Source: a bacterium (lineage in GTDB: Bacteria; Patescibacteriota; Microgenomatia; JAMCZE01). From it: 64,000 nucleotides of DNA. Made by a program: the position numbers and the translations under genes. Shown here one piece after another: positions 11,252-63,446 of this stretch; the first letter of the stretch is position 1; each line of letters starts with the position of its first letter. The stretch lies in NCBI GenBank assembly GCA_021836035.1, contig JAKBJL010000001.1, positions 138,142-202,141 of the forward strand. The letters run 5' to 3'. The notes beneath the pieces were generated by a model. The model saw only the letters and a program-made list of their open reading frames with translations. It had not been told where the DNA came from and ran no database searches.

Positions 11252-13211
11252 TCCTTCGACTGCGCTCAGGACGGGTCCTTCGACTTCGCTCAAGACAAGC
11301 CTTCCCCGGTCTCTTATCCGCAATTTTTGCATCATCGCCCATGTGGATCACGGCAAATCCACTCTGGCTGACCGCTTTTTAGAAATTACCGGATCGGTCA
11401 GCAAAAGCGGCCATGCTGAGCAACTTCTCGATAACCACCCAATCTCCCGCGCCCGCGGCATCACTATCCGCCTCGCCCCCGTTACCATGCATTATTCCTT
11501 AATTCGCAATTCGCAATTAGATAATTATCAATTAAATTTGATTGATACTCCCGGCCACGTCGATTTCAGTTATGAAGTGGAACGGACGCTTTCCGCCTGC
11601 GAAGGAGCGATTTTATTAGTTGACGCCACCCAGGGTATCCAAGCCCAGACCCTTTCCCATTTTCAGAAAGCGCAAAAGTTGGGATTAACTATTATTCCCG
11701 TGATCAACAAAATCGATATGCCTAACGCACGGACTGCTGAAACAGAGAAAGACTTACATGAATTATTCAATTCGCAACCCCGCAATAGCGAGGTTCCGAG
11801 TGAAAACGAGGGACTGGATAATTCGCAATTCCCAATTCTTAAGGTTTCTGCCAAGACCGGAGAGGGAGTGCAGGGCTTATTGGAAGAAGTGATTAGGAAA
11901 GTGCCGCCTCCGGCCGGTAATCCCGATGGTCCGGCGCGCGCTCTGGTTTTTTCTTCCCAATTTGCTGCCCAAAAAGGTGTGACCGCATTTGTCCGAGTCT
12001 TTGACGGCAAGTTAGAAGGCCGCGGAAAAATCCGTTTTTTGGCCGCCGGACTGGAAGCAGCTGTTTTAGACCTGGGCCACTTTTCCCCGGCCATGCTCCC
12101 CACGGAGGCCCTCGGAACCGGAGAAGTTGGTTACCTTACCACCAATCTTAAAGATCCGTCGCTCGTCCGTGTCGGCGATACCATCACCACGGAAAATTCG
12201 CAATTCGCAATCCCTCGACAAGCTCGGGATTATCCCGAGCGAAGCCGAAGGACAATTCACAATTCGCAATTGATTCCGTTACCCGGTTACCGCGAAATAA
12301 AGCCCATGGTTTTTATCAGTCTTTTCCCGGTCGACCAGAACGATTACGCGCTTTTGGAGGACGCCCTGGAAAAATTAAAACTCAACGATGCAGCGCTAGC
12401 TTTTTCTCCCATGGGCTCTAAAGTCTTAGGCCGCGGGTTCCGTGCCGGATTTTTAGGGCACCTTCATGCCGAAGTTTCCCGGGAACGGCTGGAAACCGAT
12501 TTCGGGCTGAATGTTCTCGCCACCACCCCCACCGTTGAATACCGAATTCGCAATTCGCAATCTCTCGACAAGCTCGGGATTATCCTGAGCGAAACCGAAG
12601 GACAATTTGCAATTCGCAACTATGAGGAACCTTGGGTTTTAGCTACCGTCATCCTCCCCCAAAATTATGTCGGCCCCATAATGTCCCTGAGCAAAGATCA
12701 CCGGGGAATTTTAAAGAATATGGTTTATCACGGCAATAATGTCACTCTAACTTACGAAATCCCGCTGGGGGAAATTATTACCGATTTTTTTGACGAGTTA
12801 AAGTCGCGCACTTCCGGTTACGGCAGTCTCGATTATGAATTTTTGGACTACCGTCCTTTCGATGCCGTTACCCTGGAAATTTTAATTAACCACGAGGCGG
12901 TCGATGCCTTTTCCCAAATTCTGCCAAAGGAAAAAGCGGAAAGCTACGGCCGTTTTTTGGTGGAGAGACTAAAAGAAGCTATCCCCCGCCAACAAATCCC
13001 CATTATCATTCAAGCAGCCATAGATAACCAGATTATTGCCCGCGCCGATATTGCCGCTTACCGCAAAGACGTAACGGCCAAACTTTACGGCGGGGACCGC
13101 ACCCGCCGGGATAAACTGCTGGAAGCGCAAAGAAAGGGCAAAAAGAAAATGCGGCAGATCGGCCGCGTGCAAATCCCCGGCGACACTTTCCTCAAAATCT
13201 TTAAAACCTAA
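11235..13211 (+). CDS. lepA: Elongation factor 4 (LepA), 658 aa with several in-frame repeat-derived segments
   Basis: G-domain motifs AHVDHGKST, DTPGH and NKID, then the LepA C-terminal region. About 55 aa longer than typical LepA because of the repeat segments described separately. Confidence 0.9.
   Translation: MKNMDNPSTALRTGPSTSLKTSLPRSLIRNFCIIAHVDHGKSTLADRFLEITGSVSKSGHAEQLLDNHPISRARGITIRLAPVTMHYSLIRNSQLDNYQLNLIDTPGHVDFSYEVERTLSACEGAILLVDATQGIQAQTLSHFQKAQKLGLTIIPVINKIDMPNARTAETEKDLHELFNSQPRNSEVPSENEGLDNSQFPILKVSAKTGEGVQGLLEEVIRKVPPPAGNPDGPARALVFSSQFAAQKGVTAFVRVFDGKLEGRGKIRFLAAGLEAAVLDLGHFSPAMLPTEALGTGEVGYLTTNLKDPSLVRVGDTITTENSQFAIPRQARDYPERSRRTIHNSQLIPLPGYREIKPMVFISLFPVDQNDYALLEDALEKLKLNDAALAFSPMGSKVLGRGFRAGFLGHLHAEVSRERLETDFGLNVLATTPTVEYRIRNSQSLDKLGIILSETEGQFAIRNYEEPWVLATVILPQNYVGPIMSLSKDHRGILKNMVYHGNNVTLTYEIPLGEIITDFFDELKSRTSGYGSLDYEFLDYRPFDAVTLEILINHEAVDAFSQILPKEKAESYGRFLVERLKEAIPRQQIPIIIQAAIDNQIIARADIAAYRKDVTAKLYGGDRTRRDKLLEAQRKGKKKMRQIGRVQIPGDTFLKIFKT
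11247..11295 (+). repeat. Imperfect ~20-bp tandem direct repeat inside the lepA N-terminus
   Basis: CCTTCGACTGCGCTCAGGAC / CCTTCGACTTCGCTCAAGAC encodes PSTALRTG-PSTSLKTS. It sits in front of the conserved IRNFCIIAHVDHGKST start of the G domain. Confidence 0.7.
11501..11518 (+). repeat. (AATTCGC)x2.5 heptanucleotide tandem repeat inside lepA
   Basis: aattcgcaattcgcaatt, translated in frame as LIRNSQL. Confidence 0.8.
11768..11837 (+). repeat. Degenerate AATTCGC-type repeats flanking a ~13-aa extra segment in lepA
   Basis: caattcgcaaccccgcaat ... aattcgcaattcccaatt encodes NSQPRNSEVPSENEGLDNSQFPI. This lies between NKID and SAKTG, a stretch about 13 aa shorter in typical LepA. Confidence 0.65.
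12195..12271 (+). repeat. 77-bp palindrome-containing mini-element, copy 1, in frame in lepA
   Basis: AATTCGCAATTCGCAAT, then ccctcgacaagCTCGGGATtATCCCGAGcgaagccgaagg, then ACAATTCACAATTCGCAATT. Heptad repeats flank a perfect 8+1+8 palindrome. Encodes NSQFAIPRQARDYPERSRRTIHNSQL, about 18 aa more than orthologs have between GDTIT and LPGY. Confidence 0.8.
12544..12620 (+). repeat. 76-bp mini-element, copy 2 (about 93% identical to copy 1), in frame in lepA but read in a different frame
   Basis: gaattcgcaattcgcaatctctcgacaagctcgggattatcctgagcgaaaccgaaggacaatttgcaattcgcaac encodes IRNSQSLDKLGIILSETEGQFAIRN. Confidence 0.8.
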
Positions 13212-23741: not shown

Positions 23742-23771
23742 GGTTATTCAATTTTAAGATAGGCTCTTGTC

Positions 23772-24209
23772 CTATACAAGAGAAATTTGGTCCAGCGTTT
23801 CGTTAACGAGCTTGTCGGCAAGGTAATTTTTGCTGCGGGGAATGTGCAAGAATTTGATTGATAAGGGAACGAAATTGTTCGCCAGTTCCGCCAGCATAAA
23901 GTTAACTTTCGCCGAAAGCTCTCTCAGGTTACGGTCTTTAATTTTCCAGCGTCCATTGATCTGGGAAACGGCCAGCAAGGAATCGGAATGGAAGTGAATT
24001 GTTTTATATTTCGCAGCCAATCCGCTTTTGAGTAAATACCCCAAGGCCAGGATAACCGCCTGGTATTCGGCGATATTGTTAGTAGATTTACCCAAGTATT
24101 TCCCGCACTTTTCTAAAAATTCCCCCTGATCATTAAGAATAACATAGGCGGCAGCTGCGGGACCGGGGTTTCCTCTTGCTCCCCCATCGGTAAAAATATT
24201 TAATTTCAT
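23772..24209 (-). CDS. rnhA: Ribonuclease HI
   Basis: IFTDGGARGNPGPAAAAYVI...NNIAEYQAVILAL...FHSDSLLAV matches the RNase H active-site region. Confidence 0.85.
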   Translation of the reverse strand: MKLNIFTDGGARGNPGPAAAAYVILNDQGEFLEKCGKYLGKSTNNIAEYQAVILALGYLLKSGLAAKYKTIHFHSDSLLAVSQINGRWKIKDRNLRELSAKVNFMLAELANNFVPLSIKFLHIPRSKNYLADKLVNETLDQISLV

Positions 24210-24315
24210 AATAATCTCGTACTGTGCTTGTTTCCCGTGAGGTAATTATATTTTCTTCACGGGAAAATAATTCTTTTAGATTATACTGTTGGCCTGTACA
24301 AAATCGTGCCCGGGT

Positions 24316-25611: not shown

Positions 25612-25619
25612 AAGCCTTG

Positions 25620-26927
25620 TTAATTATAAGTTGCTGGTTTGGCTATTACCAGGCGGGACCAGAAAAGACCAAAAGTAAAAGCCAATAGCATTTGTGTTTG
25701 TTGTAAAGTAAATAAATAGTGGTCAAAAAGACCCAGGAAGAATATTGCCAGGAAAATAATAAGCTGCGGGGAGTGAAACCGCCAGAGGCGTTTTGCGGTC
25801 AGAAACAAAATATAGAAAAAAGCCGTCATGCCAATAATTCCGGTTTCTGCCAACAAAAGAAGAAAAATATTATGGACCGGCTGCCCGATTAAATAAAAAC
25901 TATTGCCTAAAAATTGTTGATCGGCAGAAAGTATTGAAAAATTTCCCAAACCGATACCGGCAAGAGGGGAATGGTAAAAATATTTTATCGCCTCTTGATT
26001 CAGAAGTCGGCGGTTCAGAATCGTATACTTATCGGAGCTAAACAAAGCTCCAAAACGAAAGTAAAGGGTGGGTAAGAAAAAGGTAAACATGGCCAGCGCC
26101 GCAATTACCGCCGCGCCATAATTTCTTCTGAGGCCATACCGAAATACCCCCGGATGGTTAAGGATATGGAGCGCGACAATGCTGCAAACAAAGACTGCTA
26201 AAGCACTACGTGAAAGTGAGAGAAGAATAATTAAAAAAGAAATCAAAACTTCGATATAAATTAATTTCCTAAAAACTTCATTTTTAAAAACAAATTCCTG
26301 CCAGGAAAAAATAATTAATCCGCTGATTAAAAAATAGCCCGCCATTTGGTTGGGGTGGGAAAAAAAGGAATAAGGGCGGAAATATAAATAGCCGTTGATT
26401 ACTGCCGTCGCAATTCCGGGGGTAGCGATATTAAAACTTCTTTCCCCCAACCAATACCAAAAACCACCGAGAGCTGACTGCCGGTATATTTGACCGAGAG
26501 CGGAAATTAAAATAACTATCGACTGGATAAAAAAAATAGCGATCAGCGGCTTAATATTTTTAATGTTTAAAATTTTTCGACTAATAATAAAAATAAAAGT
26601 TAGTTCTAAAACTTTCAGCCATTTATATAAAGAAACCTGGGGCGATCGGGAAGAATAAATATTTAATCCCGCTGTCGCGAAAAATATCAGGACGGCGATT
26701 AGGTTGGTAATCTTTATTTTTCCCGAACTCTTTACGGTAAATAGACAAACAATAATTAAGGCGGCCGCCAGGATATCGGTAAGGTAAACAGTGGGGGAAA
26801 GGTAATCAATTCGTAATCCCCGGACGTAAGCAAAGGGTGGCCAGAAATGCATACCCAGCTGGGTCGGTAAAAATAAAAACCATAAATAAAAAAGGGGAAT
26901 AATTAGTTTTAGGAAATTGACTGCCAC
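25620..26927 (-). CDS. O-antigen ligase / polymerase-like (Wzy_C family) membrane protein
   Basis: Polytopic, 435 aa, with a large loop between later helices. Adjacent to the flippase gene. Confidence 0.5.
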   Translation of the reverse strand: MAVNFLKLIIPLFYLWFLFLPTQLGMHFWPPFAYVRGLRIDYLSPTVYLTDILAAALIIVCLFTVKSSGKIKITNLIAVLIFFATAGLNIYSSRSPQVSLYKWLKVLELTFIFIISRKILNIKNIKPLIAIFFIQSIVILISALGQIYRQSALGGFWYWLGERSFNIATPGIATAVINGYLYFRPYSFFSHPNQMAGYFLISGLIIFSWQEFVFKNEVFRKLIYIEVLISFLIILLSLSRSALAVFVCSIVALHILNHPGVFRYGLRRNYGAAVIAALAMFTFFLPTLYFRFGALFSSDKYTILNRRLLNQEAIKYFYHSPLAGIGLGNFSILSADQQFLGNSFYLIGQPVHNIFLLLLAETGIIGMTAFFYILFLTAKRLWRFHSPQLIIFLAIFFLGLFDHYLFTLQQTQMLLAFTFGLFWSRLVIAKPATYN

Positions 26928-26936
26928 GTGGGATTG

Positions 26937-27431
26937 TTATTCCTGTCCGGTCTTGGGTTTGACAATTAACCTGCGCTGTTCACCTTCTCCGATTGATTCA
27001 GCGGTTATCTGAGGATGATCTTTTAGGGCGATGTGTATTACCCGACGGTCGGCGGCCGTTAAATAGGGAAAAGTTACCGGGGAATTGGTGGTAATCGCCC
27101 GGTTGGCAAAACCCGTCGCCATCTCTTTTAACTGCTCTTCTCTTTTGGCACGGTAATCGCCGACTTCGACGACAATCTTCTCCCATTGCCCCAGTTTTTT
27201 ATATACCATAATTCCTAAGATTAATTGGAAAGAAGATAGTGTGTCCCCGTGGAAACCGATTAGCAAGCCGGAGTCGGGAGTGTTAATGCTTACCTGATAA
27301 GTGTCTTCTTCTAAAAGCTTTACTTCCGCCTCGCCGTCAAGTTGTAAAGCCGACAGCAATTCTACGGCGATATCTTTGATTACGCGGTCAGTTTTATTTT
27401 TATTTTCACTGATTTTTTTGGTGCGTGCCAT
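26937..27431 (-). CDS. khpB: Jag/KhpB RNA-binding protein (KH + R3H domains)
   Basis: An R3H region (RVIHIALKDHPQITAESIGEGEQRRLIV). Lies downstream of yidC, the conserved origin-region gene order. Confidence 0.75.
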   Translation of the reverse strand: MARTKKISENKNKTDRVIKDIAVELLSALQLDGEAEVKLLEEDTYQVSINTPDSGLLIGFHGDTLSSFQLILGIMVYKKLGQWEKIVVEVGDYRAKREEQLKEMATGFANRAITTNSPVTFPYLTAADRRVIHIALKDHPQITAESIGEGEQRRLIVKPKTGQE

Positions 27432-27434
27432 AAG

Positions 27435-28178
27435 CTACCTTCCTCCTAATTTTCTGAATTTTATCACGTATTGTTCCAGTCCGCCAAGACCGGAGATACG
27501 AAACTGTTGATAAATAGCCAATAAACTGCTTACCGACCAATATAAAGCCAGTCCCGCGGGCCATTGTGTCCCCAAGAACAGAAACATCAGGGGGAACATC
27601 CAGATCATGGAAGACTGCGCTTCGGCAAATTCGCCCATGAAATCACTTTTCTCTTGTTTTTCTGCGGGCTTATCTTCTTTTCTAATCTTGGGGGCTGTGG
27701 GCATCATCATTTTGGTCTGGATAAATTGAGTCAGGGCGGCGATGACTACTAAAATTCCGGGTACGGCAATCGGTATGCCGGTAAGATGATAAGCGTCAGG
27801 TTTAGCCATATTCCAAACAAAAAACTCCGTATTTACTTTCATACTCAAAATTCTACTGAGAGCACCTAAAAGACCGAAAAGAATAACTATCTGGACAATA
27901 CTGGGAAGGCAGCCGGCCGCGGGGTTAACTCCGTGTTGTTTAAAAAGATCCATTTGGGCGGTAGCGAATGCCTGCTGGTTGCCTTTATGTTTTTCCTTGA
28001 GGGCATTAATATGCGGCTGCAGCTCAGACATTTTTTTACTGTATTGCACTTGCTGTTTGATAACCGGATAAAAAATAAGGCGGGAAAGAACGGCAATCTC
28101 CACAATAGCAACTCCCAGATTATGAAAACCCACCGTGCTGTAAATGAAGAGAACAATTTGTAAAAAAAACTCCGTCAT
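27435..28178 (-). CDS. yidC: Membrane protein insertase YidC/Oxa1 (short Gram-positive type)
   Basis: 247 aa with 5 TM helices. Conserved gene context yidD-yidC-jag. Confidence 0.8.
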   Translation of the reverse strand: MTEFFLQIVLFIYSTVGFHNLGVAIVEIAVLSRLIFYPVIKQQVQYSKKMSELQPHINALKEKHKGNQQAFATAQMDLFKQHGVNPAAGCLPSIVQIVILFGLLGALSRILSMKVNTEFFVWNMAKPDAYHLTGIPIAVPGILVVIAALTQFIQTKMMMPTAPKIRKEDKPAEKQEKSDFMGEFAEAQSSMIWMFPLMFLFLGTQWPAGLALYWSVSSLLAIYQQFRISGLGGLEQYVIKFRKLGGR

Positions 28179-28191
28179 TAAAATTTAGTAA

Positions 28192-28443
28192 TTATAAATT
28201 AGAAATTCCCGGAACCGGGTCGTTGCCTCCTTTGTTCCAGGGATGGCAGCGGATAATACGTTTTAGGCCCAGCCAAAGCCCCGGAATTGTACCATATTTT
28301 TCTACCGCTAGATAGGTATATTCACTGCAGGTTGGAATGAAACGGCAGGCCTTGTCGGTTAAAAACAATAAACGGAAGACTCCGCCGTCAAAAGAGAGAT
28401 ACTTCTGGTAAAAACGAATTAGGAACAAAACGAGATTCCGCAC
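28192..28443 (-). CDS. yidD: Membrane protein insertion efficiency factor YidD
   Basis: CRFIPTCSEYTYLAVEKYG...RCHPWNKGGNDPVP matches the YidD signature. Confidence 0.8.
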   Translation of the reverse strand: MRNLVLFLIRFYQKYLSFDGGVFRLLFLTDKACRFIPTCSEYTYLAVEKYGTIPGLWLGLKRIIRCHPWNKGGNDPVPGISNL

Positions 28444-28463
28444 TCCTGTATTATAATAGTTTT

Positions 28464-28805
28464 TTAAGAAAGAAGCTGGGCGCGGTGCAAAATCTTTTCC
28501 ACCTCCTGAGTTATCTCGATTCTGGCAGTCGTCGCCGCTTTAGTTTTTGCTAAAAAAACCAGTTCGGTGTTTTGGGGTATCCGGTTAAGAAAAGGGTCTA
28601 CGGCGTCCGCTAGTTTCCTTTTAATCTCATGGCGAACCACGGATTTTTTATCCACCTTTTTACTGACGATAAAGGCAGCTTGGCGGCCTGGGACTTTGCC
28701 GTAAGAAACCAGCAAACCAAAAGAGGGGGAATCATACAATTTCCCGGATTTACGGATGCGCTTAAATTCTCTCCTTAAAGGAATCAGATTTTTACGGGGA
28801 AGCAT
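28464..28805 (-). CDS. rnpA: RNase P protein component
   Basis: 113 aa basic protein. LRREFKRIRKSGKLYDSPSFGLLV...AAFIVSKKVDKKSVVRHEIKRKLA is RnpA-like. Confidence 0.8.
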   Translation of the reverse strand: MLPRKNLIPLRREFKRIRKSGKLYDSPSFGLLVSYGKVPGRQAAFIVSKKVDKKSVVRHEIKRKLADAVDPFLNRIPQNTELVFLAKTKAATTARIEITQEVEKILHRAQLLS

Positions 28806-28870
28806 TTATAACTACTAATGGCAAATAGCCGTTGGCCAACAGCCTTGGGCCGCCTGCCTTAAACTGTTTA

Positions 28871-29008
28871 CTATATGGTTATTCGTTTTCTTCCTTTAAG
28901 CGTTCTCCGATGCATGAGCTTGCGCCCGCTATGTGTAGCGTTGCGCTGAAGAAAGCCGTGTTTTCTCTGTCTTTTTAATTTTTTCGGCTGCCAGACTCTT
29001 TTGGGCAT
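28871..29008 (-). CDS. rpmH: 50S ribosomal protein L34
   Basis: MPKRVWQPKKLKRQRKHGFLQRNATHSGRKLMHRRTLKGRKRITI, 45 aa, too short for the ORF track. Found by manual translation upstream of rnpA. Confidence 0.8.
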   Translation of the reverse strand: MPKRVWQPKKLKRQRKHGFLQRNATHSGRKLMHRRTLKGRKRITI

Positions 29009-29087
29009 AGCCTAATTATATCCGGCCGTTCTCTGCGAGACAATAGTGTCTTTGGCAATTTGTTATAGTTCTGCCCACTTGAAAAAA

Positions 29088-29096
29088 TGTGGATAA
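29088..29096 (-). promoter_or_regulatory. Consensus DnaA box in the dnaA promoter region
   Basis: tgtggataa, the reverse complement of TTATCCACA, lies 19 nt upstream of the dnaA start. Confidence 0.55.
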
Positions 29097-29114
29097 CTTG
29101 TAAGATGCCGTCGT

Positions 29115-30503
29115 ATGAACCCCGGCGATATTTGGAAAACGGTTCTGGCGGAAATTGAAGTAGACCTGGGGAAAAGCACGACCAAAATTAACTTCAGTAA
29201 CAGCCGGCTTTTATCCCTGGAAAAAGGTATTGCCAGGATATCGCTGGCAACCAATTTAGCCCGGGAAACCGTGGAAAAAAGATATTATGTTCTGCTGCAA
29301 AATGCCCTCGAACGACAAAGCAAAGAAAAATTATCGCTTGTTTTTGAAGTAATCAAACCGGAGCTGGCCGCTCCCGCCGGACCACTCTTTGAAACCCTCA
29401 ACTTTCCGGAACAGGTCAATAAACCGGATATCAGCCGGACAGACAGTTTTAATCTGTCCAATACCGAAGAACAATACCGTAAAACCGGTCTCAATCCCAA
29501 GTACAGTTTAAAATCTCTGGTGGTCGGCGCCAGCAACAATTTTGCACACGCCGCGGCTATGACCATCTGTAAAAACCCCGGGAAAGAATATAATCCCTTC
29601 TTTATTTACGGCGGAGTCGGAGTTGGTAAAACCCACCTTATGCAGGCCATCGGCAATGAACTTTTTGTCCGCAACTCTAATCTGCGGATTTTATACATAA
29701 CCGCCGAGCATTTTATGAACGATCTAGTCGCCTCTTTACAACAAAAAACTATGCCTGCTTTCAAGAAACGCTATCGGGAAGTCGATGTTTTATTAGTGGA
29801 CGATATCCAGTTTATTTCCAAAAAAGAAGCTATGCAGGATGAGTTTTTCTATACTTTTAATTCCTTATTTATGGGCGAGAAGCAGATTATTCTTACCTCC
29901 GATCGGCCGCCGCAAGAAATCCAGGTCGAGGACCGGCTTCTTTCGCGCCTGATGGGCGGTTTAGCCGCAGATATTCAAACTCCTGATCTGGAAATGCGCA
30001 TCGCTATTATTAAACAAAAATTATCCGCCCGGCGAGAAAACTGGGATGAGGCTTCGATAGAATACCTGGCTACCCGTTTGGAAAACAACATCCGGGAAAT
30101 TGAAGGTGCTATGCAAAAAATTATGGCCGTCTCCCAGTCCGCAAACACGCCGGTAAATTTGGATTTGGTTAAAAAAGCCCTGGGAGTAGCCAACGGCCTC
30201 GATAAGCCCCCGGTTCCGGCTTCGCCGCAAAAAATTATCTCCGCGGTTTCCAAAGTCTTCGGGATTAAACAGGGAGATATTCTTTCCGATAAGCGCGATG
30301 CGGAATTTGTTTTACCCAGGCAGGTAATCATGTTCCTTTTACGGACGGATTGCCGGATTAAACTGGAAGAGGTTGCCCGGATTATGAAACGCAAAGACCA
30401 TACGACGGTTATCCACGCCGTGGGGAAAATTGAGAAACAGTTTGCGGATAATCAACAGCTAAGGCAACAGATTTTGTTGATAAAACGGGAAGTTTGGGGA
30501 TAA
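29115..30503 (+). CDS. dnaA: Chromosomal replication initiator DnaA
   Basis: AAA+ Walker A GGVGVGKTHL, Walker B LLVDDIQF, and a C-terminal DNA-binding domain (TDCRIKLEEVARIMKRKDHTTVIHAV). Confidence 0.9.
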   Translation: MNPGDIWKTVLAEIEVDLGKSTTKINFSNSRLLSLEKGIARISLATNLARETVEKRYYVLLQNALERQSKEKLSLVFEVIKPELAAPAGPLFETLNFPEQVNKPDISRTDSFNLSNTEEQYRKTGLNPKYSLKSLVVGASNNFAHAAAMTICKNPGKEYNPFFIYGGVGVGKTHLMQAIGNELFVRNSNLRILYITAEHFMNDLVASLQQKTMPAFKKRYREVDVLLVDDIQFISKKEAMQDEFFYTFNSLFMGEKQIILTSDRPPQEIQVEDRLLSRLMGGLAADIQTPDLEMRIAIIKQKLSARRENWDEASIEYLATRLENNIREIEGAMQKIMAVSQSANTPVNLDLVKKALGVANGLDKPPVPASPQKIISAVSKVFGIKQGDILSDKRDAEFVLPRQVIMFLLRTDCRIKLEEVARIMKRKDHTTVIHAVGKIEKQFADNQQLRQQILLIKREVWG

Positions 30504-46543: not shown

Positions 46544-47629
46544 TTAACTGTTAAAGTCCAACCCCGGGTCAGCGTCAACTTTTCCGACAGGAACCGGATG
46601 GTGATTAAAATAAGCCGCGGAGGCGATATAGGCTGCGTTGTCGGTGCATAACTTTATCTTGGGAACATGAATTGCGAATTGCGAACCGTCAAATTGCGAA
46701 TTAAGTTTCTCGCGGAGGCGGGAATTAGCTGCGACGCCGCCGGCCAACAGAACGGACCGGGTACGGAATTTTTCCGCCGCCCGGAGGGTTTTATATACCA
46801 GGACATCGGTGACGGACTCCTGCAGCTCAGCAGCCAGGGCTGATGAAAAGAAGATTTCTTCTGCAGAAGAAATCTTCTTTTTTAGCTCATTAGCCACCGC
46901 AGTTTTGAGGCCGCTGAAACTGAAGTCAAATTGCTTGTCATAAAGCAACGGACGGGGCAATTTAATTTGGAATTTGGAATTTGGAATTTGGAATTTGGAA
47001 GCCGCAGCTTCTATTGCCGGGCCGCCGGGGTAGCCGAGGTTTAACAGCCGGGCACATTTGTCAAAACATTCGCCCGCAGCATCGTCCCGGGTCCCCCCAA
47101 GCCGTTTAAATTTTCCATGGTTTTCCATAAGCACTAATTCCGTATGGCCGCCGCTGACAATAAGAACGACGGCGGGGAATTCCGGCCTCGGGCTATTTGC
47201 CCCGCCCAGCCAATTCGCATAAATGTGGCCGACCAAATGGTTAACGGGAACAAGCGGTTTATTCCAGGCAAGGGCTAAGGCCTTGGCTGTTTCCACGCCG
47301 ACGAGTAAACTGCCGATCAGACCGGGACCGACGGTCACGGCAAGGGCATCTATATCAGAGGCTAGCGGATGGCGGTAAGTATATAGACCGGGTAATATTT
47401 TTTCTTTACGCTTTACGCTAAACGCTTTACGCTCCGGATTTAAGGCTTCATTTATCACCGGAATAATCGCCCTAATTTGTTCCCGCGCGGCTTGTTCGGG
47501 AATAATCCCGCCGTATTTGGCGTGAATTTCCTGCGAACTGGCAACCACATTAGAAACAATTTCCGTGCCATCTTTTACGATAGCAGCTGCCGTTTCGTCA
47601 CAGGAGGTCTCGATAGCGAGGATTGTCAT
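46544..47629 (-). CDS. tsaD: tRNA N6-adenosine threonylcarbamoyltransferase TsaD (Kae1/Qri7 family), with in-frame heptad-repeat segments
   Basis: MTILAIETSCDETAAAIV start. HxxGH metal site (NHLVGHIYANWL). SGGHTELV, GYPGGPAIE, LCTDNAAYIA. 361 aa against about 335-340 for typical orthologs. Confidence 0.85.
   Translation of the reverse strand: MTILAIETSCDETAAAIVKDGTEIVSNVVASSQEIHAKYGGIIPEQAAREQIRAIIPVINEALNPERKAFSVKRKEKILPGLYTYRHPLASDIDALAVTVGPGLIGSLLVGVETAKALALAWNKPLVPVNHLVGHIYANWLGGANSPRPEFPAVVLIVSGGHTELVLMENHGKFKRLGGTRDDAAGECFDKCARLLNLGYPGGPAIEAAASKFQIPNSKFQIKLPRPLLYDKQFDFSFSGLKTAVANELKKKISSAEEIFFSSALAAELQESVTDVLVYKTLRAAEKFRTRSVLLAGGVAANSRLREKLNSQFDGSQFAIHVPKIKLCTDNAAYIASAAYFNHHPVPVGKVDADPGLDFNS
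46669..46702 (-). repeat. (GCAATTC)-type heptad repeats inside tsaD, the same family as the lepA repeats
   Basis: Plus strand gaattgcgaattgcgaaccgtcaaattgcgaatt; the minus strand encodes LNSQFDGSQFAI. Confidence 0.75.
46964..46998 (-). repeat. (AATTTGG)x5 heptanucleotide tandem repeat inside tsaD
   Basis: Five perfect tandem units; the minus strand encodes SKFQIPNSKFQIK. Confidence 0.85.
47404..47433 (-). repeat. (CTTTACG)x4 heptanucleotide tandem repeat inside tsaD (one unit CTAAACG)
   Basis: Encodes ERKAFSVKRKEK. It lies within a segment of about 24 aa that is absent from typical TsaD, between the ALNP and DIDALAVTVGPG regions. Confidence 0.8.
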
Positions 47630-54955: not shown

Positions 54956-55807
54956 ATGCAGTTAAAGCGCAACCAGATTAAAACCCTGGCCTATTCCGAC
55001 TTATTTAACTATCCCCTAAGCGGCAAAGAGCTGAAACTTTGGGAAATCTCCGTGGGCCAGAAGGAGTCGGGTGAAAGCAAAATAAAAACCGGGCACCGCG
55101 ACGGCTTTTATTTTTTGCCCGGAAGAGCGGGCTTAGTGAATTTGCGCCGGGAGAGAGAAAAATATACGGCGGAGAAAAGGGTAAAAGGACAGGATGTTGC
55201 CAGGGTTCTGCAACGGATTCCTTTTGTTCGGGCAATATTTTTAACCGGCTCGGTTGCCGCCGGCAGCGCGGAGGAAAACGCAGATATTGATTTAATGATT
55301 GTGGTTCAACCCGGAGCCTTATGGCTGACCAGGCTTTCCGTCGTTACCTACCTGAAAATTAAAGGAATTTATTCGGGCCGGACTGGCCATAACCGGAATA
55401 AAATTTGCCCGAATATTTTTTTAGACCTAAATCATTTGCCAATTGCCGAGAGAAATTTATTCACGGCGCATGAAGTGTTACAGGCCCAGTGTCTTTTCGA
55501 TCGGGGAGGAATAGAAAAGCTGTGGTTTAAGAAAAACCCCTGGACAAGGGAATTTTTACCGAACATTTTTCAGCTTAAAGTAAAAGGCTTAAAGCAAATA
55601 GCCAAAACCAGGAATGCAGGCAGGGGGGACTTTTTGTGGTATCTAATTCTCCCCCTTGAGCTTTTAGCCTTTAGCCTCCAGTTGGTTTATATGAAGCCGA
55701 AGATGACAAACGAAAATGTTGGACTGGGTTTTGCTTTCTTCCATCCGCGGAATATTTCCGCTATTATTTTGCAACAATGGCAAAAAAGACTAGAATTACT
55801 AAAGTGA
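54956..55807 (+). CDS. Nucleotidyltransferase-fold protein
   Basis: A GS...D.D signature (FLTGSVAAGSAEENADIDLMIVV). Confidence 0.5.
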   Translation: MQLKRNQIKTLAYSDLFNYPLSGKELKLWEISVGQKESGESKIKTGHRDGFYFLPGRAGLVNLRREREKYTAEKRVKGQDVARVLQRIPFVRAIFLTGSVAAGSAEENADIDLMIVVQPGALWLTRLSVVTYLKIKGIYSGRTGHNRNKICPNIFLDLNHLPIAERNLFTAHEVLQAQCLFDRGGIEKLWFKKNPWTREFLPNIFQLKVKGLKQIAKTRNAGRGDFLWYLILPLELLAFSLQLVYMKPKMTNENVGLGFAFFHPRNISAIILQQWQKRLELLK

Positions 55808-57543
55808 AAAAGCTCGCCGCCGTTGTTGGCATTCTCTTTGCGCTTTCCGCTTTCCGCCTTACGCTTTCCGCTCCGATTTTTTCTGCCGAGTGTTCCTCTT
55901 CCTGTTCTAATGATGATTTGGATAACTGCATTAAAGAATGCAATAAGCTCTTGGATATATCTATCAATGCCACCAAGCCGCACGAACAGCGGATGGAGCA
56001 GCTGCAGGAAACGATCGCTAACATTGACGCAAACGTCGAGACTTTAACCGGACTGATTGCCCGCAAAAAAGCCCAGATTGAAACCCAGGAAAAAAAGCTC
56101 GGGGGACAGCAAAAGGATTTTGAGGTAAAAGTCCGTAATTATTATGAAAAAAGCTACCAGTTCGGAACCAATTATTTATATACCGTATTATTTTCCCACC
56201 ACAATACCGGGGATGCCGTGCGCAACATTTCCTACCGCCAGAATTTTATTAACAGCGATAAACAGACAATTACCAATTTGGTTTTGCAGTTGATTGATCT
56301 AAATAAAGCCCGGGAAACCCTGGAGGAAAACCAAAATCAATTAACAAATCAAAAAGCGCAGCTGGAAACGATTTTGGCCCCGATCCGGGATCTCGTTAAG
56401 GGAGCAAAAGCTTATCAGTCGCAATTGTCGCAGACAGCAGCGGGCTTGACGAAACGCCAGGAGGAATTGTTGGCGCAGAAAACCGGCAATTTCCAGACCA
56501 GCGTCGGGGATGTGCCGCCCGCGGATGATCCGGCCTCCCGTCCGGACTATAATCCCGGTTTTAGCCCTGCATACGCCGGCTTTTCTTTCGGCGCCCCGCA
56601 CCGCAAGGGGATGAGCCAATATGGAGCTTTCGGCCGGGCCAAACAGGGGCAAAGCGCCGAAGATATTTTGAAAGCTTATTATGGCGGCAGCATCGAGATT
56701 AAAAAAGATTATTCCACTTCCGTAAATATTGCCGTTCAGGGTTACGGGACATATAAAATTGAAGATTACGTTAAAAGAATTTACGAAGTGCCGAACTCCT
56801 GGGGCGACGAGGGCGGTTACGAAGCGCTCAAGGCGCAGGCAGTTGCGGCCCGCTCTTATGCTTTGGCATATACCAGTAACGGTTCCGGTTCCATTTGCGC
56901 GAGCGAATCCTGCCAGGTTTTCCAGGCTGGAGAAAAAGGCGGGAACTGGGGAAGGGCGGTAGATGAAACGCGCGGTTGGGTACTGGTAGCAAACGGCCAG
57001 CCGTTTTCCGCCTGGTACGCCGCTACCTCCGGCGGGTATAACTACTCTTATGCAGCTAATGGTTATAGTACTCCCGGCGGCTGGGATACCAAATGCGGCA
57101 ACCAATCCTGCTGGACTAACGACGCTTATGAAAAAATCGCGGGCAGCCCCTGGTTTTATAAAGCTTGGTACCGGCCGCGCTACACAAGTCCCAGCCGTTC
57201 CCACCCGTGGCTTAATAAGGAGGAGTTTGTCGATATTGTTAATGCGGTACTCTTGTTTGTCAAAGATAACGGTACCCTTTCTCATTTATCCCAGACCGAC
57301 AAATCCAATCCCGATACCTGGTCACGCGACGAGGTCCGCAGCCACCTGGGCGGCGATGCCGTTTCCGAAGTAAACGGTATTTCCGTAACTTATAGTACCG
57401 GCGGCTATACCAGCAGCGTGCATCTGGAAACGGATAAGGGGGGAAAAGACATAGGCGGCGATATTTTTCGCCAGATTTTTAATATCCGGGCTCCGGGCGA
57501 AATCTGGCTGGCCAGCGCTCTTTTTAATATCGAGAAAAAATAG
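55777..57543 (+). CDS. SpoIID/LytB-domain protein with N-terminal anchor and coiled-coil
   Basis: AVAARSYALAYTS...CASESCQVFQAG...SAWYAATSGGYN matches the SpoIID amidase-enhancer domain. Confidence 0.7.
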   Translation: MAKKTRITKVKKLAAVVGILFALSAFRLTLSAPIFSAECSSSCSNDDLDNCIKECNKLLDISINATKPHEQRMEQLQETIANIDANVETLTGLIARKKAQIETQEKKLGGQQKDFEVKVRNYYEKSYQFGTNYLYTVLFSHHNTGDAVRNISYRQNFINSDKQTITNLVLQLIDLNKARETLEENQNQLTNQKAQLETILAPIRDLVKGAKAYQSQLSQTAAGLTKRQEELLAQKTGNFQTSVGDVPPADDPASRPDYNPGFSPAYAGFSFGAPHRKGMSQYGAFGRAKQGQSAEDILKAYYGGSIEIKKDYSTSVNIAVQGYGTYKIEDYVKRIYEVPNSWGDEGGYEALKAQAVAARSYALAYTSNGSGSICASESCQVFQAGEKGGNWGRAVDETRGWVLVANGQPFSAWYAATSGGYNYSYAANGYSTPGGWDTKCGNQSCWTNDAYEKIAGSPWFYKAWYRPRYTSPSRSHPWLNKEEFVDIVNAVLLFVKDNGTLSHLSQTDKSNPDTWSRDEVRSHLGGDAVSEVNGISVTYSTGGYTSSVHLETDKGGKDIGGDIFRQIFNIRAPGEIWLASALFNIEKK

Positions 57544-60856: not shown

Positions 60857-60943
60857 CGGAAGGTACAGGATTCGAACCTGTGTGAGCCTATTCGGCTCAA
60901 GGGGTTAGCAACCCCTCGCTTTGGGCCACTCAGCCAACCTTCC
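60857..60943 (-). tRNA. tRNA-Ser (anticodon GCU)
   Basis: Manual fold: acceptor GGAAGGT/ACCTTCC, a Ser-type D-arm, anticodon loop TTGCTAA, a long variable arm (TGAGCCGAATAGGCTCAC), T-arm ACAGG-TTCGAAT-CCTGT, discriminator G. 87 nt. Confidence 0.8.
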
Positions 60944-61646: not shown

Positions 61647-61649
61647 GTC

Positions 61650-62315
61650 AACGGGCTAAAGTAAGCGCGAAGACTTTCGGAAATCCCACATGTTTTAAGA
61701 CTGACCCGCAGCTTTTTAGGGTCGTCCCTGTTGTCCAAATGCCATCGACAAGAATGAGCGTATAACGGTTAGCGGAAAGCGTAAAGTTGAAACTGGGATT
61801 AATAGCGAAAATACCGGCCACATTTTTTGCCGCTCCTTTTCGGAAAGGCCCCGCTGTGATTCGGTCAGTGTGGTTCCGTTGAGTAAATTTTCCGCGACCG
61901 GAATACTTAGTTGTTTACTTAATTCCCGCGCCAAACTCGTTGACTGATTAAATCCGCGCTGTTTTTCCTTCCACCAATGCAGCGGTACCGGAATAAGAAG
62001 AAGATTGTCAAACTGTCTTTTTAAAATTGTGATCTACGGCTGAACAGCGCTTTGCTCCAATAAAATTTTTATCAGCCCTGCGGAAGCCGCGAAAGTGAAC
62101 GGCCGGAATTTTAAACGGCTGATAGCGTTTTTGATCGGTTGCTGATAAATAAATCCCGATAACAATCCGTCGAGGGAATATTTTGTCTGACAGCGGAAAT
62201 GGGTCCGGCCATGAATCGCGGGATATTCACAAACCGGGCAAACCCGGGGATTAACCGAATAATTTTCCCGGCAATCCTGACAAAAATAAACCCCGGTTTT
62301 CCACGCCCCAAACAC
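61650..62315 (-). pseudogene. comFC: comFC-like (ComF amidophosphoribosyltransferase family) gene disrupted by an in-frame TAG and a frameshift
   Basis: N-terminal zinc finger (CQDCRENY...CPVCEYP). A TAG stop at 62034-62036 (minus strand), then the in-frame IPVPLHWWKEKQRGFNQS ComF motif. A later +1 shift within an A6 run is needed to reach the PRTase motif LVDGIWTTGTTL...ALTLAR. Confidence 0.6.
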
Positions 62316-62379: not shown

Positions 62380-62817
62380 ATGCGCGTAATTAATCGCACC
62401 GCCAACTATAATTATGACATTTTGGAAAAATTAGAAGCCGGGATTGATTTGTTGGGGCCGGAGGTAAAATCCGTGCGCGCCGGCCAAGTTTCTTTAAACG
62501 AAGCTTTTGTGCACATTCGGGACGGCCAGGCGTATTTGGTTAACGCCCACATTCACCCTTACCAAAATTCCCAGGAATCGATCCTTCCTACCCGGGCGCG
62601 CCGGTTGCTTTTCCATAAAAAAGAAATCATAAGTTTAGCAAGTAAAGCCGCCACAGAAGGTTTGACCCTTATACCCCTGGCGCTGTATAATAAGGGCAAC
62701 ATCTTTAAGGTTGAGGTGGGACTAGGCAAGGGGAAAAAGAAGTGGGATAAGCGGGAAGCCTTAAAGAAAAAAGCCCAGGAAAGAGAAATCGATATCGCAT
62801 TACGAGGAAAAGAGTAA
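62380..62817 (+). CDS. smpB: SsrA-binding protein SmpB
   Basis: NYDILEKLEAGIDLLGPEVKSVRAGQVSL...LLFHKKEI and a basic C-terminal tail. Confidence 0.85.
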   Translation: MRVINRTANYNYDILEKLEAGIDLLGPEVKSVRAGQVSLNEAFVHIRDGQAYLVNAHIHPYQNSQESILPTRARRLLFHKKEIISLASKAATEGLTLIPLALYNKGNIFKVEVGLGKGKKKWDKREALKKKAQEREIDIALRGKE

Positions 62818-62842: not shown

Positions 62843-63201
62843 GTTTGGGGATGTACGAATCGACGGGAGAGCACTTTGAAAACGGCAAGCCGAAGAAGAA
62901 ACCTACTTCGTAAAAGATGGTTTCAAAACTTAAGTGCTGATAATCATCAGTACGCGTACGCTTACGCTTAAAAACGTAGACTAACGCTGTTCCCTAAATC
63001 TTTTTCCGGTGAGATTTTCGGAGCATAAACAAAGCCGGGATGCTGAAGACAAAGTTTGATTCTCTTTATCTTTATAAGCCGAACAATCACGCAATAATTT
63101 TCTTGTCGGCCCGACCAATTATTGCAAGAGTAAGAACCGAATAAGCTTGTAGATGTTTAGAAGTCACTTTCTCGCACGGGAGCTCACCCTCCCCATCTCC
63201 A
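62843..63201 (+). ncRNA. ssrA: tmRNA (ssrA); 3' end approximate
   Basis: 5' end GGGGATGTACGAATCGACGGGAG matches the conserved tmRNA 5' region. The 3' acceptor CATCTCC-A pairs with GGGGATG and gives a G3:U70 pair and discriminator A. Candidate tag frame GCT GAT AAT CAT CAG TAC GCG TAC GCT TAC GCT TAA (ADNHQYAYAYA). About 359 nt, directly downstream of smpB. Confidence 0.55.
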
Positions 63202-63446
63202 CATCGCGGAAACCCAGTTCAGAAACCCTCTGGATTAGCTGTATCGAATAAGACAAACCAGGAGATCCAAACCCATTGCCGACAAATAGCCAGCAACCTA
63301 ATCTCTGTCGGGGTTTCTAACACGAACATCCTCCACCTGTATCCCCCGAAAACAATCGGTGTAGTCAATAATCCGACCGCAATTAGGAATAGACCGGAAG
63401 CACCGATTGATTTGACCAAGGAAACTAAATATACTATTCATAGTTC

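What the first reader, a model, noticed from the sequence alone, without database searches (positions are those of the whole stretch)
46544..47629. Essential gene tsaD carries three in-frame heptanucleotide tandem-repeat tracts, including (AATTTGG)x5 and (CTTTACG)x4
Heptamer repeat units change the reading frame with every gain or loss of a unit. Such tracts are typical of phase-variable contingency genes, not of an essential tRNA-modification enzyme. Here they are embedded so that the frame is maintained. They encode SKFQIPNSKFQIK, LNSQFDGSQFAI and an extra segment of about 24 aa (ERKAFSVKRKEK...) relative to orthologs. The GCAATTC tract matches the lepA repeat family. Either the protein tolerates these inserts in loops, or slippage switches tsaD on and off, which would be remarkable.
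Basis: partly seen in the sequence, partly recalled or inferred. Interest (0 to 1): 0.75.

Follow-up and report, generated by a model that had tools for sequence, protein, structure and literature searches.

The report
Slippage-prone 7-base repeats inside tsaD
The tRNA-modification gene tsaD of this Patescibacteria (CPR) genome really carries three 7-base tandem repeats in tolerated protein segments, as do its relatives and the neighbouring gene lepA, and one otherwise identical assembly has lost one repeat unit and so breaks the gene.

Summary
tsaD (46544-47629, minus strand) is a full-scoring TsaD with three period-7 tracts. Only one is long and perfect: (CCAAATT)x5.3 on the sense strand.

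Period-7 tracts are about 70 times commoner in the window than in shuffles. They are concentrated in tsaD and lepA.

The tracts are not private to this gene. TsaD and LepA homologues from related Patescibacteria carry many different 7-residue-periodic peptides (3 x 7 nt) at the same few hot spots. Four related tsaD genes read as DNA carry heptamer arrays at those sites.

Site 1 is a disordered insert of about 22-26 residues. Site 2 is a loop. Site 3 is folded and adds no length. All catalytic and tRNA-binding motifs are intact.

One ENA assembly is identical to the window over 20.7 kb except for one missing CCAAATT unit. That splits tsaD into 246- and 117-residue ORFs. A Shapirobacteria pair shows a similar frameshift through a 16-nt repeat unit.

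Against a switch, 119 of the 120 listed cluster representatives cover at least 98% of the query, and one relative's TsaD is identical on 8 contigs.

Best reading: lineage-wide, slippage-prone heptamer microsatellites tolerated in variable segments and kept in frame by selection. They are a mutational liability, not a proven switch.

The parts
46544..47629 (-). tsaD coding sequence, 361 aa, intact allele
   Evidence: ORF list. TIGR03723 scores 378 bits. Foldseek TM-score normalised to target 0.92-0.94 to E. coli and Salmonella TsaD. The identical protein is on 3-4 other contigs, including NCBI GCA_027371575.1.
46964..47000 (-). Site 2 array: sense (CCAAATT)x5.3, perfect, encoding SKFQIPNSKFQI. 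This is the demonstrably variable tract.
   Evidence: TRF score 74, 100% matches. ENA contig k141_542298 has one unit fewer, which is the only difference in 20,748 nt. Model pLDDT is about 78 here.
47404..47433 (-). Site 1 array: sense (CGTAAAG)x4.3, imperfect, encoding ERKAFSVKRKEK
   Evidence: TRF 82% matches. Related arrays lie at 55836-55872 and 61756-61786. A similar unit, AAGCGTG, sits at the same site in relative L084.
47363..47440 (-). Whole site 1 insert, residues about 64-89 (PERKAFSVKRKEKILPGLYTYRHPLAS), absent from T. maritima TsaD and from many CPR homologues
   Evidence: phmmer alignment gaps. Alignment of homologues. pLDDT below 50 at residues 69-76 and 82-84.
46669..46702 (-). 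Site 3 array: sense AATTCGC family, two short arrays split by a 6-nt spacer, encoding NSQFDGSQFAI. No net insertion.
   Evidence: TRF. Ungapped against T. maritima TsaD. Helix 303-313 and strand 319-321 at pLDDT about 95. Same unit as the lepA arrays.
11501..11518 (+). lepA solo (AATTCGC)x2.6 array
11766..11838 (+). lepA composite insert, diverged: array, then about 42-nt core, then array. A 14-aa insert relative to Aquifex LepA.
   Evidence: Sequence. phmmer gap.
12195..12269 (+). lepA composite element, copy A: (AATTCGC)2.4, then a 40-nt core with an 8-bp hairpin, then (ACAATTC)2.9. A 21-aa insert.
   Evidence: Direct-repeat family D2. Fold. phmmer gap.
12545..12619 (+). lepA composite element, copy B, 93% identical to copy A
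55836..55872 (+). (CTTTCCG)x5.3 imperfect array encoding the hydrophobic N-terminus of a SpoIID-family protein

Best explanation
The three tracts are heptanucleotide microsatellites of a kind common in this Patescibacteria lineage (hits named by their sources are Microgenomates-group taxa).

**Inferred origin.**
- Short 7-nt arrays arise and are kept homogeneous by replication slippage. A bias towards 7-nt units has been reported for many bacteria.
- They may be seeded or moved by small array-core-array elements like those in lepA.

**Shown.**
- In conserved proteins the arrays are found at a few structurally permissive positions. In TsaD these are about five hot spots.
- Three heptamers make 21 nt, so an array is read in all three frames and gives a 7-residue-periodic peptide.

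**Inferred selection.**
- A gain or loss of 1 or 2 units destroys the frame. Purifying selection on TsaD removes such alleles, leaving arrays whose net length keeps the frame.

**Shown at assembly level, not at read level.**
- The perfect (CCAAATT)5 tract is still mutable. A sibling genome carries 4 units and hence a truncated, almost certainly inactive TsaD.

Overall the tracts are tolerated, self-renewing low-complexity DNA and a mutational liability, not an evolved regulator of tsaD.
For: **Abundance and distribution.**
- Period-7 excess: 7 tracts against 0.1 in shuffles.
- Density is 0.125 per kb in the window and 0.31 per kb in relative L164, against 0.022 per kb in 1.1 Mb of non-CPR loci.
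- Arrays occur in several genes: lepA, tsaD, a SpoIID-family gene, an NTase and a ComF-like gene.

**Same phenomenon in relatives.**
- TsaD homologues at 55-66% identity show 62 runs with a 7-residue offset, 56 of them distinct strings, in 45 of 120 proteins. Offsets 3 and 9 give 5 each.
- LepA homologues show 33 distinct offset-7 runs. Other offsets have mostly 2-4 distinct strings; the larger counts at offsets 9-11 (up to 12) are dominated by variants of a few conserved motifs.
- DNA of four relatives shows heptamer arrays at the same TsaD sites, some with different units.
- Every indel between TsaD pairs that are 80-93% identical falls in five hot spots.

**Structure and function.**
- Low pLDDT occurs only at sites 1 and 2.
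- All motifs used for catalysis and tRNA contact are present: ETSCD, GGIIPE, HxxxH, SGGH, K191/R194, SFSGLKT and CTDN.

**Selection for frame.**
- 119 of 120 listed cluster representatives cover at least 98% of the query.
- P0016 is identical on 8 contigs from several samples.

**Mutability.**
- A 7-nt gap is the sole difference in 20,748 nt.
- A 16-nt repeat-unit gap frameshifts tsaD in a Shapirobacteria MAG.

**Literature.** Heptamer over-representation and the polymerase-slippage idea are described in PMC4692102.
Against: - Perfect arrays of at least 4.4 units sit in tsaD in 4 of 5 lineages examined. tsaD holds 3 of 8 tracts in the window and 4 of 6 in L164 (P about 1e-4 each). That concentration and persistence are not obviously expected of neutral junk in a selected gene.
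- All AATTCNN arrays are in sense orientation, which pure slippage does not predict.
- The two 93%-identical 75-nt composite elements in lepA suggest copying, not only slippage.
- If the 4-unit allele is the majority in its sample, loss of TsaD is tolerated better than 'liability' implies.
Confidence: 0.6

Rival explanations
1. tsaD is a true repeat-controlled phase-variable locus. Reversible gain or loss of a CCAAATT unit switches t6A synthesis off and on, giving subpopulations with altered translation. This would work as in heptanucleotide-controlled neuO.
For: - The tract is a perfect non-triplet repeat inside the ORF.
- A clonal sibling, with 0 mismatches in 20.7 kb, carries the -1-unit OFF allele.
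- A second lineage has a repeat-unit frameshift in tsaD.
- Perfect arrays of 4.4 units or more are kept in tsaD in 4 of 5 lineages, and tsaD is enriched for arrays.
- t6A genes are dispensable in some bacteria.
- A precedent exists for a coding heptamer switch that is ON when the unit count is divisible by 3 (PMC13001214).
Against: - 119 of 120 cluster representatives cover at least 98% of the query, and 4 of 5 assemblies of this species are ON. By contrast neuO is OFF in 66% of genomes, with 3-53 units.
- The tract has only 5 units and lies 58% into the gene.
- P0016 is invariant on 8 contigs.
- The same arrays occur in lepA and in LepA of relatives, so nothing singles out tsaD as a target of regulation.
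- No reversion or +1 allele was seen.
Confidence: 0.15
2. The arrays are the ends, targets or footprints of a very small mobile element (array, hairpin core, array) that inserts in frame into conserved genes. This would resemble Rickettsia palindromic elements or the small dispersed repeats found inside heptamer arrays in Nostoc. The tsaD tracts would be solo or internally deleted copies.
For: - lepA has two 75-nt copies at 93% identity, plus a third diverged one, all with array-core-array layout and a central 8-bp hairpin.
- tsaD site 3 looks like two arrays joined by a 6-nt remnant.
- Array-core-array peptides occur at TsaD site 2 of other lineages, for example KFEIRNS-HSEGISRSE-QFEIK.
- P0007 and P0100 carry the same 20-40-aa insert twice in one protein.
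- All the arrays are in sense orientation.
- Rickettsia palindromic elements provide a precedent (PMC10969869).
Against: - The core is found only twice in 64 kb, both times in lepA, and in no other fetched locus.
- The hairpin is not significant against shuffles (z = -1.9 and -1.0).
- No terminal inverted repeats, target-site duplication or candidate transposase was seen.
- The long perfect tsaD tract has no core.
- Unit sequences differ between lineages at one site, as expected from in-place drift.
Confidence: 0.15
3. The tract, or the difference between assemblies, is an assembly or sequencing artefact.
For: - The variant allele is the one-unit collapse that a de Bruijn graph cycle at k=29 would yield.
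- The two assemblies share 0 mismatches, so they may come from the same reads.
- Low-k Logan contigs do break at such arrays.
Against: - The 5-unit intact allele is in 3-4 independent assemblies.
- The tract is 37 nt, far shorter than the final k of 141. From my own understanding of assemblers, unitig-based assemblers break rather than collapse at such cycles.
- Arrays at the same sites occur in many unrelated assemblies and sources.
Confidence: 0.1

Closest known systems
neuO of E. coli K1 prophage CUS-3 (heptanucleotide AAGACTC repeat in the coding region)
   Same: A 7-nt tandem repeat lies inside an ORF. The frame is kept only for certain unit numbers. The repeat is translated into a 7-residue-periodic peptide. 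Strand slippage changes the unit number (PMC13001214).
   Different: - neuO has 3-53 units at the 5' end, is OFF in about two thirds of genomes, and is a surface-modification gene.
- Here there are 5 units in mid-gene, nearly all alleles appear intact, and the gene is a housekeeping tRNA-modification enzyme.
Over-represented heptamer simple repeats of bacteria: STRR repeats of Calothrix/Nostoc and GGGAATC repeats of Xanthomonas
   Same: A lineage-specific excess of period-7 tandem repeats, with length and sequence turnover between relatives, attributed to polymerase slippage (PMC4692102).
   Different: Those repeats are overwhelmingly intergenic and often G-rich. Here all the arrays are inside coding sequence, A/T-rich, and sit at fixed protein positions.
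Rickettsia palindromic elements and other in-frame MITE insertions
   Same: Short repeated DNA is inserted in frame into unrelated conserved genes at positions compatible with the fold (PMC10969869). The lepA composites fit this picture.
   Different: - Those elements are about 150 bp, palindromic, and present in tens of copies.
- Here the elements are 17-75 nt, bounded by direct heptamer arrays, with few copies seen. The tsaD tracts themselves are plain microsatellites.
Tandem repeats of Borg elements that create disordered protein regions
   Same: Fast-evolving tandem repeats inside ORFs add low-complexity or disordered segments (PMC9879509 abstract).
   Different: From memory, Borg in-gene repeat units are multiples of 3 nt. 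Here the unit is 7 nt, so single-unit changes break the frame.

Membership tests
TsaD/Kae1/Qri7 (t6A transferase) | Full-length match above the curated cutoff, and the family fold | tested here: met
   TIGR03723 scores 378 bits against a cutoff of 296. The best PDB match is T. maritima TsaD at 1.8e-73. Foldseek TM-score normalised to target is up to 0.94.
TsaD/Kae1/Qri7 (t6A transferase) | Catalytic and tRNA-contact motifs: E-T/S-SCD, GG(V/I)(V/I)PE hairpin tip, HxxxH, SGGH, the Lys/Arg of helix alpha5, S-F-x-G-L-K of helix alpha7, and CTDN | tested here: met
   E7, S9, C10, D11, G41, P44, H131, H135, S159-H162, K191, S237-T243, C328 and D330 are invariant in the alignment; G40 and R194 are nearly invariant (90% or more). 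All are present in the window protein. Their roles are taken from PMC13276492.
Repeat-mediated phase-variable (contingency) locus | Perfect tandem repeat, unit not a multiple of 3, inside the ORF or promoter | tested here: met
   (CCAAATT)x5.3 at 100% matches within codons 210-222.
Repeat-mediated phase-variable (contingency) locus | Unit-number differences between otherwise identical genomes that toggle the frame | tested here: inconclusive
   One 4-unit allele against the 5-unit allele in 3-4 assemblies, with 0 other differences in 20.7 kb. Reads could not be examined. No +1 or revertant allele was seen.
Repeat-mediated phase-variable (contingency) locus | ON and OFF alleles both common across strains | tested here: not met
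   119 of 120 cluster representatives cover at least 98% of the query. P0016 is identical on 8 contigs. For comparison, 66% of genomes are OFF for neuO.
Repeat-mediated phase-variable (contingency) locus | High-frequency, reversible switching measured in a clone | not testable with these tools
   This needs culture or deep read data.
Repeat-mediated phase-variable (contingency) locus | Tract near the 5' end, and a gene for a surface, host-interaction or restriction function | tested here: not met
   The tract lies 58% into the ORF, and the gene is a tRNA-modification enzyme.
In-frame miniature mobile elements (Rickettsia palindromic element / MITE-like) | Multiple dispersed, near-identical copies in one genome | tested here: inconclusive
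   Two 75-nt copies at 93% identity, both in lepA. No others were found in 64 kb or in the fetched loci. The rest of the genome was not available.
In-frame miniature mobile elements (Rickettsia palindromic element / MITE-like) | Terminal inverted repeats or overall palindrome, and a target-site duplication | tested here: not met
   The ends are direct heptamer arrays. Only an internal 8-bp hairpin is present, with z = -1.9 and -1.0.
Cyanobacterial STRR-type heptamer repeats | Tandem heptamers, predominantly intergenic | tested here: not met
   All 9 arrays found in the window lie inside ORFs.

The most novel reading that the evidence does not exclude
Heptamer slippage in tsaD, and perhaps lepA, is an evolved and reversible switch. 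It would let these ultra-small bacteria generate subpopulations lacking t6A, meaning altered decoding of ANN codons and altered translational fidelity, as a bet-hedging state. The arrays would then be maintained perfect in tsaD across lineages for that reason.
Probability: 0.12. Interest if true: 0.85.

Novelty: new variant of a known kind. Interest (0 to 1): 0.55.

Why it matters
**Annotation and assembly.**
- Non-triplet microsatellites can live for long evolutionary periods inside conserved housekeeping genes of Patescibacteria. They shape the variable segments of those proteins.
- Heptamer arrays explain several artefacts in genomes assembled from metagenomes of this group: 'extra' low-complexity segments, split genes, and contig breaks.

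**Biology.**
- The finding offers a natural experiment on how much insertion TsaD and LepA tolerate.
- It raises a directly testable question: can these organisms live without t6A? The test is to count repeat alleles in reads.

**If the arrays prove to be mobile or selected for mutability,** this would be a new mode of genome and protein evolution in a major, poorly understood bacterial radiation.

Tried and rejected
1. **Scans for relatives.** The genome contigs and metagenome-contig scans for close tsaD relatives returned almost only Bacteroidota at 38-46% identity. Only L084, at 53%, was useful. The automatically chosen peptide patterns were poor, and both scans are now spent.

2. **Short TsaD fragments as frameshift alleles.** Fragments P0130/P0131 (134 aa) looked like further frameshift alleles just after site 2. 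DNA showed otherwise. The Logan k=31 contigs simply start inside the (CAACAGT)4.4 tract, and ENA contig L170 has a point stop near its end with an unchanged tract. This lead is rejected. P0125/P0127 (124 aa) start at the equivalent position on contigs of about 1 kb and were not checked at DNA level; I assume the same explanation.

3. **Quantised loop lengths.** I tested whether loop lengths step by 7 residues across homologues. This holds only partly. Site 2 has series 13/20/27/34 and 14/21/28, but its main modes are 14 and 20. Site 3 has 17/23/25/27.

4. **t6A-dependent codons.** Enrichment of ANN codons in the arrays, as a possible feedback idea, was 32% against 24% in the rest of the gene. 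This is unconvincing.

5. **Secondary structure of the tsaD tracts.** None was found: z = +0.4 to +1.0.

6. **Rescue of the 4-unit allele.** Rescue by a downstream start or by ribosomal frameshifting is unlikely. The second ORF starts after the SFSGLKT motif, and I see no canonical slippery site. This is inference.

7. **Other RNA genes.** Rfam finds no RNA family overlapping tsaD.

8. **Other t6A genes.** No Sua5 homologue or TsaD paralogue such as TsaB was found in the window by tblastn; TsaE was not searched for.

9. **Literature.** Searches found no description of heptamer arrays in Patescibacteria genes.
Full report
**1. Observation**

Window 46544-47629 (minus strand) is an intact 361-codon ORF. 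It scores 378 bits on the NCBIfam TsaD equivalog, against a cutoff of 296. It aligns end to end with solved TsaD proteins, the best being T. maritima at E = 1.8e-73.

Tandem Repeats Finder reports three period-7 arrays inside it:
- 46964-47000: AATTTGG x5.3, perfect. The sense-strand unit is CCAAATT.
- 47404-47433: CTTTACG x4.3, 82% matches.
- 46669-46702: GAATTGC x4.7, 71% matches. This is really two short arrays of the AATTCGC family separated by 6 nt.

No ORF of 60 aa or more lies on the opposite strand. No Rfam family overlaps the gene.

**2. More than chance, and not only in tsaD**

Perfect period-7 tracts of at least 17 nt number 7 in the window, against 0.1 in dinucleotide-preserving shuffles. 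No other period above 4 shows such an excess. All the arrays found lie in ORFs:
- lepA has four to six.
- tsaD has three.
- A SpoIID-family gene, a nucleotidyltransferase and a ComF-like gene have one each.

AATTCNNAATTC occurs 10 times against 0.49 expected. It occurs only in lepA and tsaD, and always on the sense strand.

tsaD holds 3 of the 8 perfect tracts of at least 16 nt in 1.7% of the window (P = 2.6e-4). tsaD and lepA together hold 6 of 8 (P = 3e-7).

**3. The organism and its relatives**

Homologues named by their sources are Patescibacteria: Microgenomates group, and Candidatus Shapirobacteria, Daviesbacteria and Gottesmanbacteria. The window matches NCBI GCA_027371575.1, contig DAHXMT010000002.1.

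Among 120 TsaD homologues at 55-66% identity:
- Runs of 3 or more residues repeated at an offset of 7 number 62, in 45 proteins. 56 of the repeated strings are distinct.
- Offsets 3 and 9 give 5 runs each. The larger counts at other offsets come mainly from a few conserved motifs.

The runs fall at the same places as in the window protein:
- after helix 44-63 (site 1)
- after ANWL (site 1b)
- before LPRP (site 2)
- after REK(F/L) (site 3)

All indels between TsaD pairs that are 80-93% identical fall in five hot spots: residues about 64-70, 143-148, 210-221, 248-261 and 313.

At the DNA level, four relatives carry heptamer arrays at these sites:

| Locus | Site | Array |
|---|---|---|
| L164 | 2 | GAATCAR x4.6 |
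| L164 | 3 | AAATTTC x4.6, perfect |
| L084 | 1 | AAGCGTG x3.7 |
| L084 | 3 | AAATTTC x4.9, perfect |
| L168 | 2 | AAGTTAA x4 |
| L173 | 2 | CAACAGT x4.4, perfect |

LepA homologues show the same signature. There are 18 and 15 distinct offset-7 strings in the closer and more distant halves of the hit list. Other offsets have mostly 2-4 distinct strings; offsets 9-11 reach up to 12 and are largely variants of a few conserved motifs. Many of the offset-7 strings sit at one hairpin just before the LIDTPGH motif.

Non-CPR loci carry 0.022 perfect heptamer tracts per kb. The window carries 0.125 per kb and L164 carries 0.31 per kb.

The phenomenon is therefore lineage-wide. It affects at least two conserved proteins and is not a peculiarity of this tsaD.

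**4. Where the tracts sit in the protein**

An AlphaFold2 model built on the 120-sequence alignment has mean pLDDT 91.7 and pTM 0.90. It superposes on E. coli and Salmonella TsaD with TM-score 0.92-0.94, normalised to the target.

- Confidence collapses only at residues 64-87, which is the site 1 insert. Residues 69-76 and 82-84 fall below 50.
- Confidence dips to about 78 around residues 212-222, which is site 2.
- Site 3 is confidently folded, with helix 303-313 and strand 319-321. It aligns without gaps to T. maritima TsaD. There the heptamer-periodic DNA encodes native structure rather than an insertion.

Against T. maritima, site 1 adds about 22 residues and site 2 adds about 4. The site 2 length, 20 residues between PGGP and PRP, is the modal length in the clade: 60 of 120 homologues.

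The elements shown by the tRNA-bound TsaBD structure to trap the anticodon loop and read the D-stem lie outside the arrays and are intact. These are:
- the alpha1-alpha2 hairpin with the GGVVP tip (T. maritima residues 31-50)
- Lys166 and Arg169
- helix alpha7 with Ser208, Gly211 and Lys213

The intact allele therefore very probably encodes a working enzyme. This is an inference.

**5. Evidence that the long tract is unstable**

The best database hit, P0003, is a 246-residue protein that is 99% identical to the window protein. Its sequence leaves the TsaD frame inside the array (...SKFQIPNSK|LNCPVR...).

It lies on ENA contig ERZ27233560:k141_542298, which is 344 kb long. There tsaD is called as two ORFs of 246 and 117 residues.

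blastn of 20,748 nt of that contig against the window gives 0 mismatches and one gap. The gap is exactly one CCAAATT unit, so 4 units instead of 5. The frameshift precedes the invariant SFSGLKT and CTDN motifs, so this is a null allele.

The intact protein is on 3-4 other large contigs from NCBI and ENA. LepA is identical on all five contigs.

A second case was found among members of 90%-identity clusters. The Shapirobacteria MAG protein P0137 (NCBI PJE67334.1) is frameshifted at site 3 relative to P0141. The two loci differ by 3 mismatches and one 16-nt gap in 4,073 nt. The gap removes one unit of an AATTATCCAATCATCT tandem repeat.

Two further apparent cases were examined and rejected. They are contig breaks inside the array in k=31 assemblies, plus a point stop near a contig end.

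Caveats:
- Reads were not available.
- The variant allele is the one-unit contraction.
- The two assemblies may share reads.
- I judge an assembler collapse unlikely, because the tract is 37 nt and the final k is 141. This rests on my own understanding of assemblers, and I cannot exclude it.

**6. Switch or liability?**

The closest known mechanism is neuO. This is a heptanucleotide repeat in a coding region, ON when the unit number is divisible by 3, with 3-53 units, and OFF in 66% of sequenced genomes (PMC13001214).

Points against a free-running switch in tsaD:
- 119 of 120 listed cluster representatives cover at least 98% of the query.
- 4 of 5 assemblies of this species are intact.
- One relative's protein is identical on 8 contigs from several samples, despite a perfect 4.6-unit array.
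- The tract is short and lies in mid-gene.
- The same arrays populate lepA.

These facts indicate strong selection for an in-frame tsaD, which argues against free switching.

Points in favour of something more than junk:
- Perfect arrays of 4.4 units or more persist in tsaD in 4 of 5 lineages.
- tsaD is strongly enriched for arrays.
- Null alleles reached assembly consensus twice.
- t6A genes are dispensable in some bacteria (PMC12632869).

I put the tolerated-microsatellite reading at 0.6 and an evolved switch at about 0.15.

**7. Origin of the arrays**

A general excess of heptamer repeats in bacteria has been noted. It has been tentatively ascribed to the length of DNA held in the polymerase active site (PMC4692102). 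Those repeats are mostly intergenic.

Here lepA also contains two 93%-identical 75-nt units. Each is built as an array, then a 40-nt core with an 8-bp hairpin, then an array. A third, diverged unit is also present.

The same layout is visible as peptides at TsaD site 2 in other lineages. Some homologues carry one insert twice.

This recalls Rickettsia palindromic elements (PMC10969869). From memory, it also recalls the small dispersed repeats found inside heptamer arrays in Nostoc. However, the core has only two copies in the data available. No terminal inverted repeats or target-site duplications were seen.

Whether arrays are seeded by such elements or merely attract them is open.

**8. Verdict**

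The feature is a new variant of known things, namely hypermutable simple repeats and in-frame selfish or low-complexity DNA. Its setting is unusual: non-triplet arrays fixed at hot spots in conserved housekeeping proteins across a candidate-phyla lineage, with a documented natural null allele of tsaD.

It is not shown to regulate anything.

Noticed in passing
window 12195-12269 and 12545-12619 (also 11766-11838), in lepA: Two 93%-identical 75-nt composite units lie in frame in lepA. Each is a heptamer array, then a 40-nt core with the hairpin CTCGGGAT/ATCCCGAG, then a heptamer array. A third, diverged unit is also present. This suggests copying of a very small element.
   Followed up: partly
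window 61648-62315 (-): A ComF-like gene appears split over three reading frames. It has a weak double zinc ribbon hit, and by eye a phosphoribosyltransferase-like C-terminus. One frame change sits at an A6 run near 61815. It also contains a CTTTNCG-family heptamer array at 61756-61786. It may be a pseudogene or contain sequencing errors.
   Followed up: partly
window about 22000-30000: Cumulative GC skew has its minimum at about 22-26 kb, next to an AT-rich stretch (GC 0.42-0.43). This may be a replication origin. If so, lepA and tsaD are both on the lagging strand, and the AATTCNN arrays share one orientation relative to fork movement.
   Followed up: no
window 55836-55872, in SpoIID-family gene 55777-57543: The hydrophobic, signal-peptide-like N-terminus (LFALSAFRLTLSA) is encoded by an imperfect (CTTTCCG)x5.3 array. 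Heptamer arrays therefore also build functional-looking segments.
   Followed up: no
L174 3386 versus L175 3387-3402 (Candidatus Shapirobacteria tsaD): A 16-nt tandem unit (AATTATCCAATCATCT) is present 2.4 times in a JGI contig and 1.4 times in NCBI MAG GCA_002793695.1. The deposited TsaD (PJE67334.1) is therefore frameshifted and loses the CTDN motif.
   Followed up: yes
L169, L171, L172 position 1 (Logan contigs of a relative): Contigs from k=31 assemblies begin exactly inside the (CAACAGT)4.4 array of tsaD. Heptamer arrays fragment low-k assemblies and create spurious 'C-terminal fragment' proteins in databases.
   Followed up: yes
P0063 versus P0096 (TsaD, 92% identical): At sites 1 and 1b these two close homologues carry entirely different array peptides: EIRNPKSEIRN versus SSKFQIPN, and ANGEWRMANGKTINYTPL versus KVSKCKSLK. 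Array content therefore turns over much faster than the rest of the protein.
   Followed up: partly
window 62847-63204 (+) and 60857-60943 (-): A tmRNA gene lies directly after the ORF at 62380-62817, which from its position I take to be smpB (not verified). A tRNA gene is also present. Both are ordinary.
   Followed up: no
window 11244-11310, lepA N-terminus: LepA has an N-terminal extension of about 20 aa of low complexity (MDNPSTALRTGPSTSLKTSLPRS) with an 8-residue internal repeat. It is absent from solved LepA proteins.
   Followed up: no
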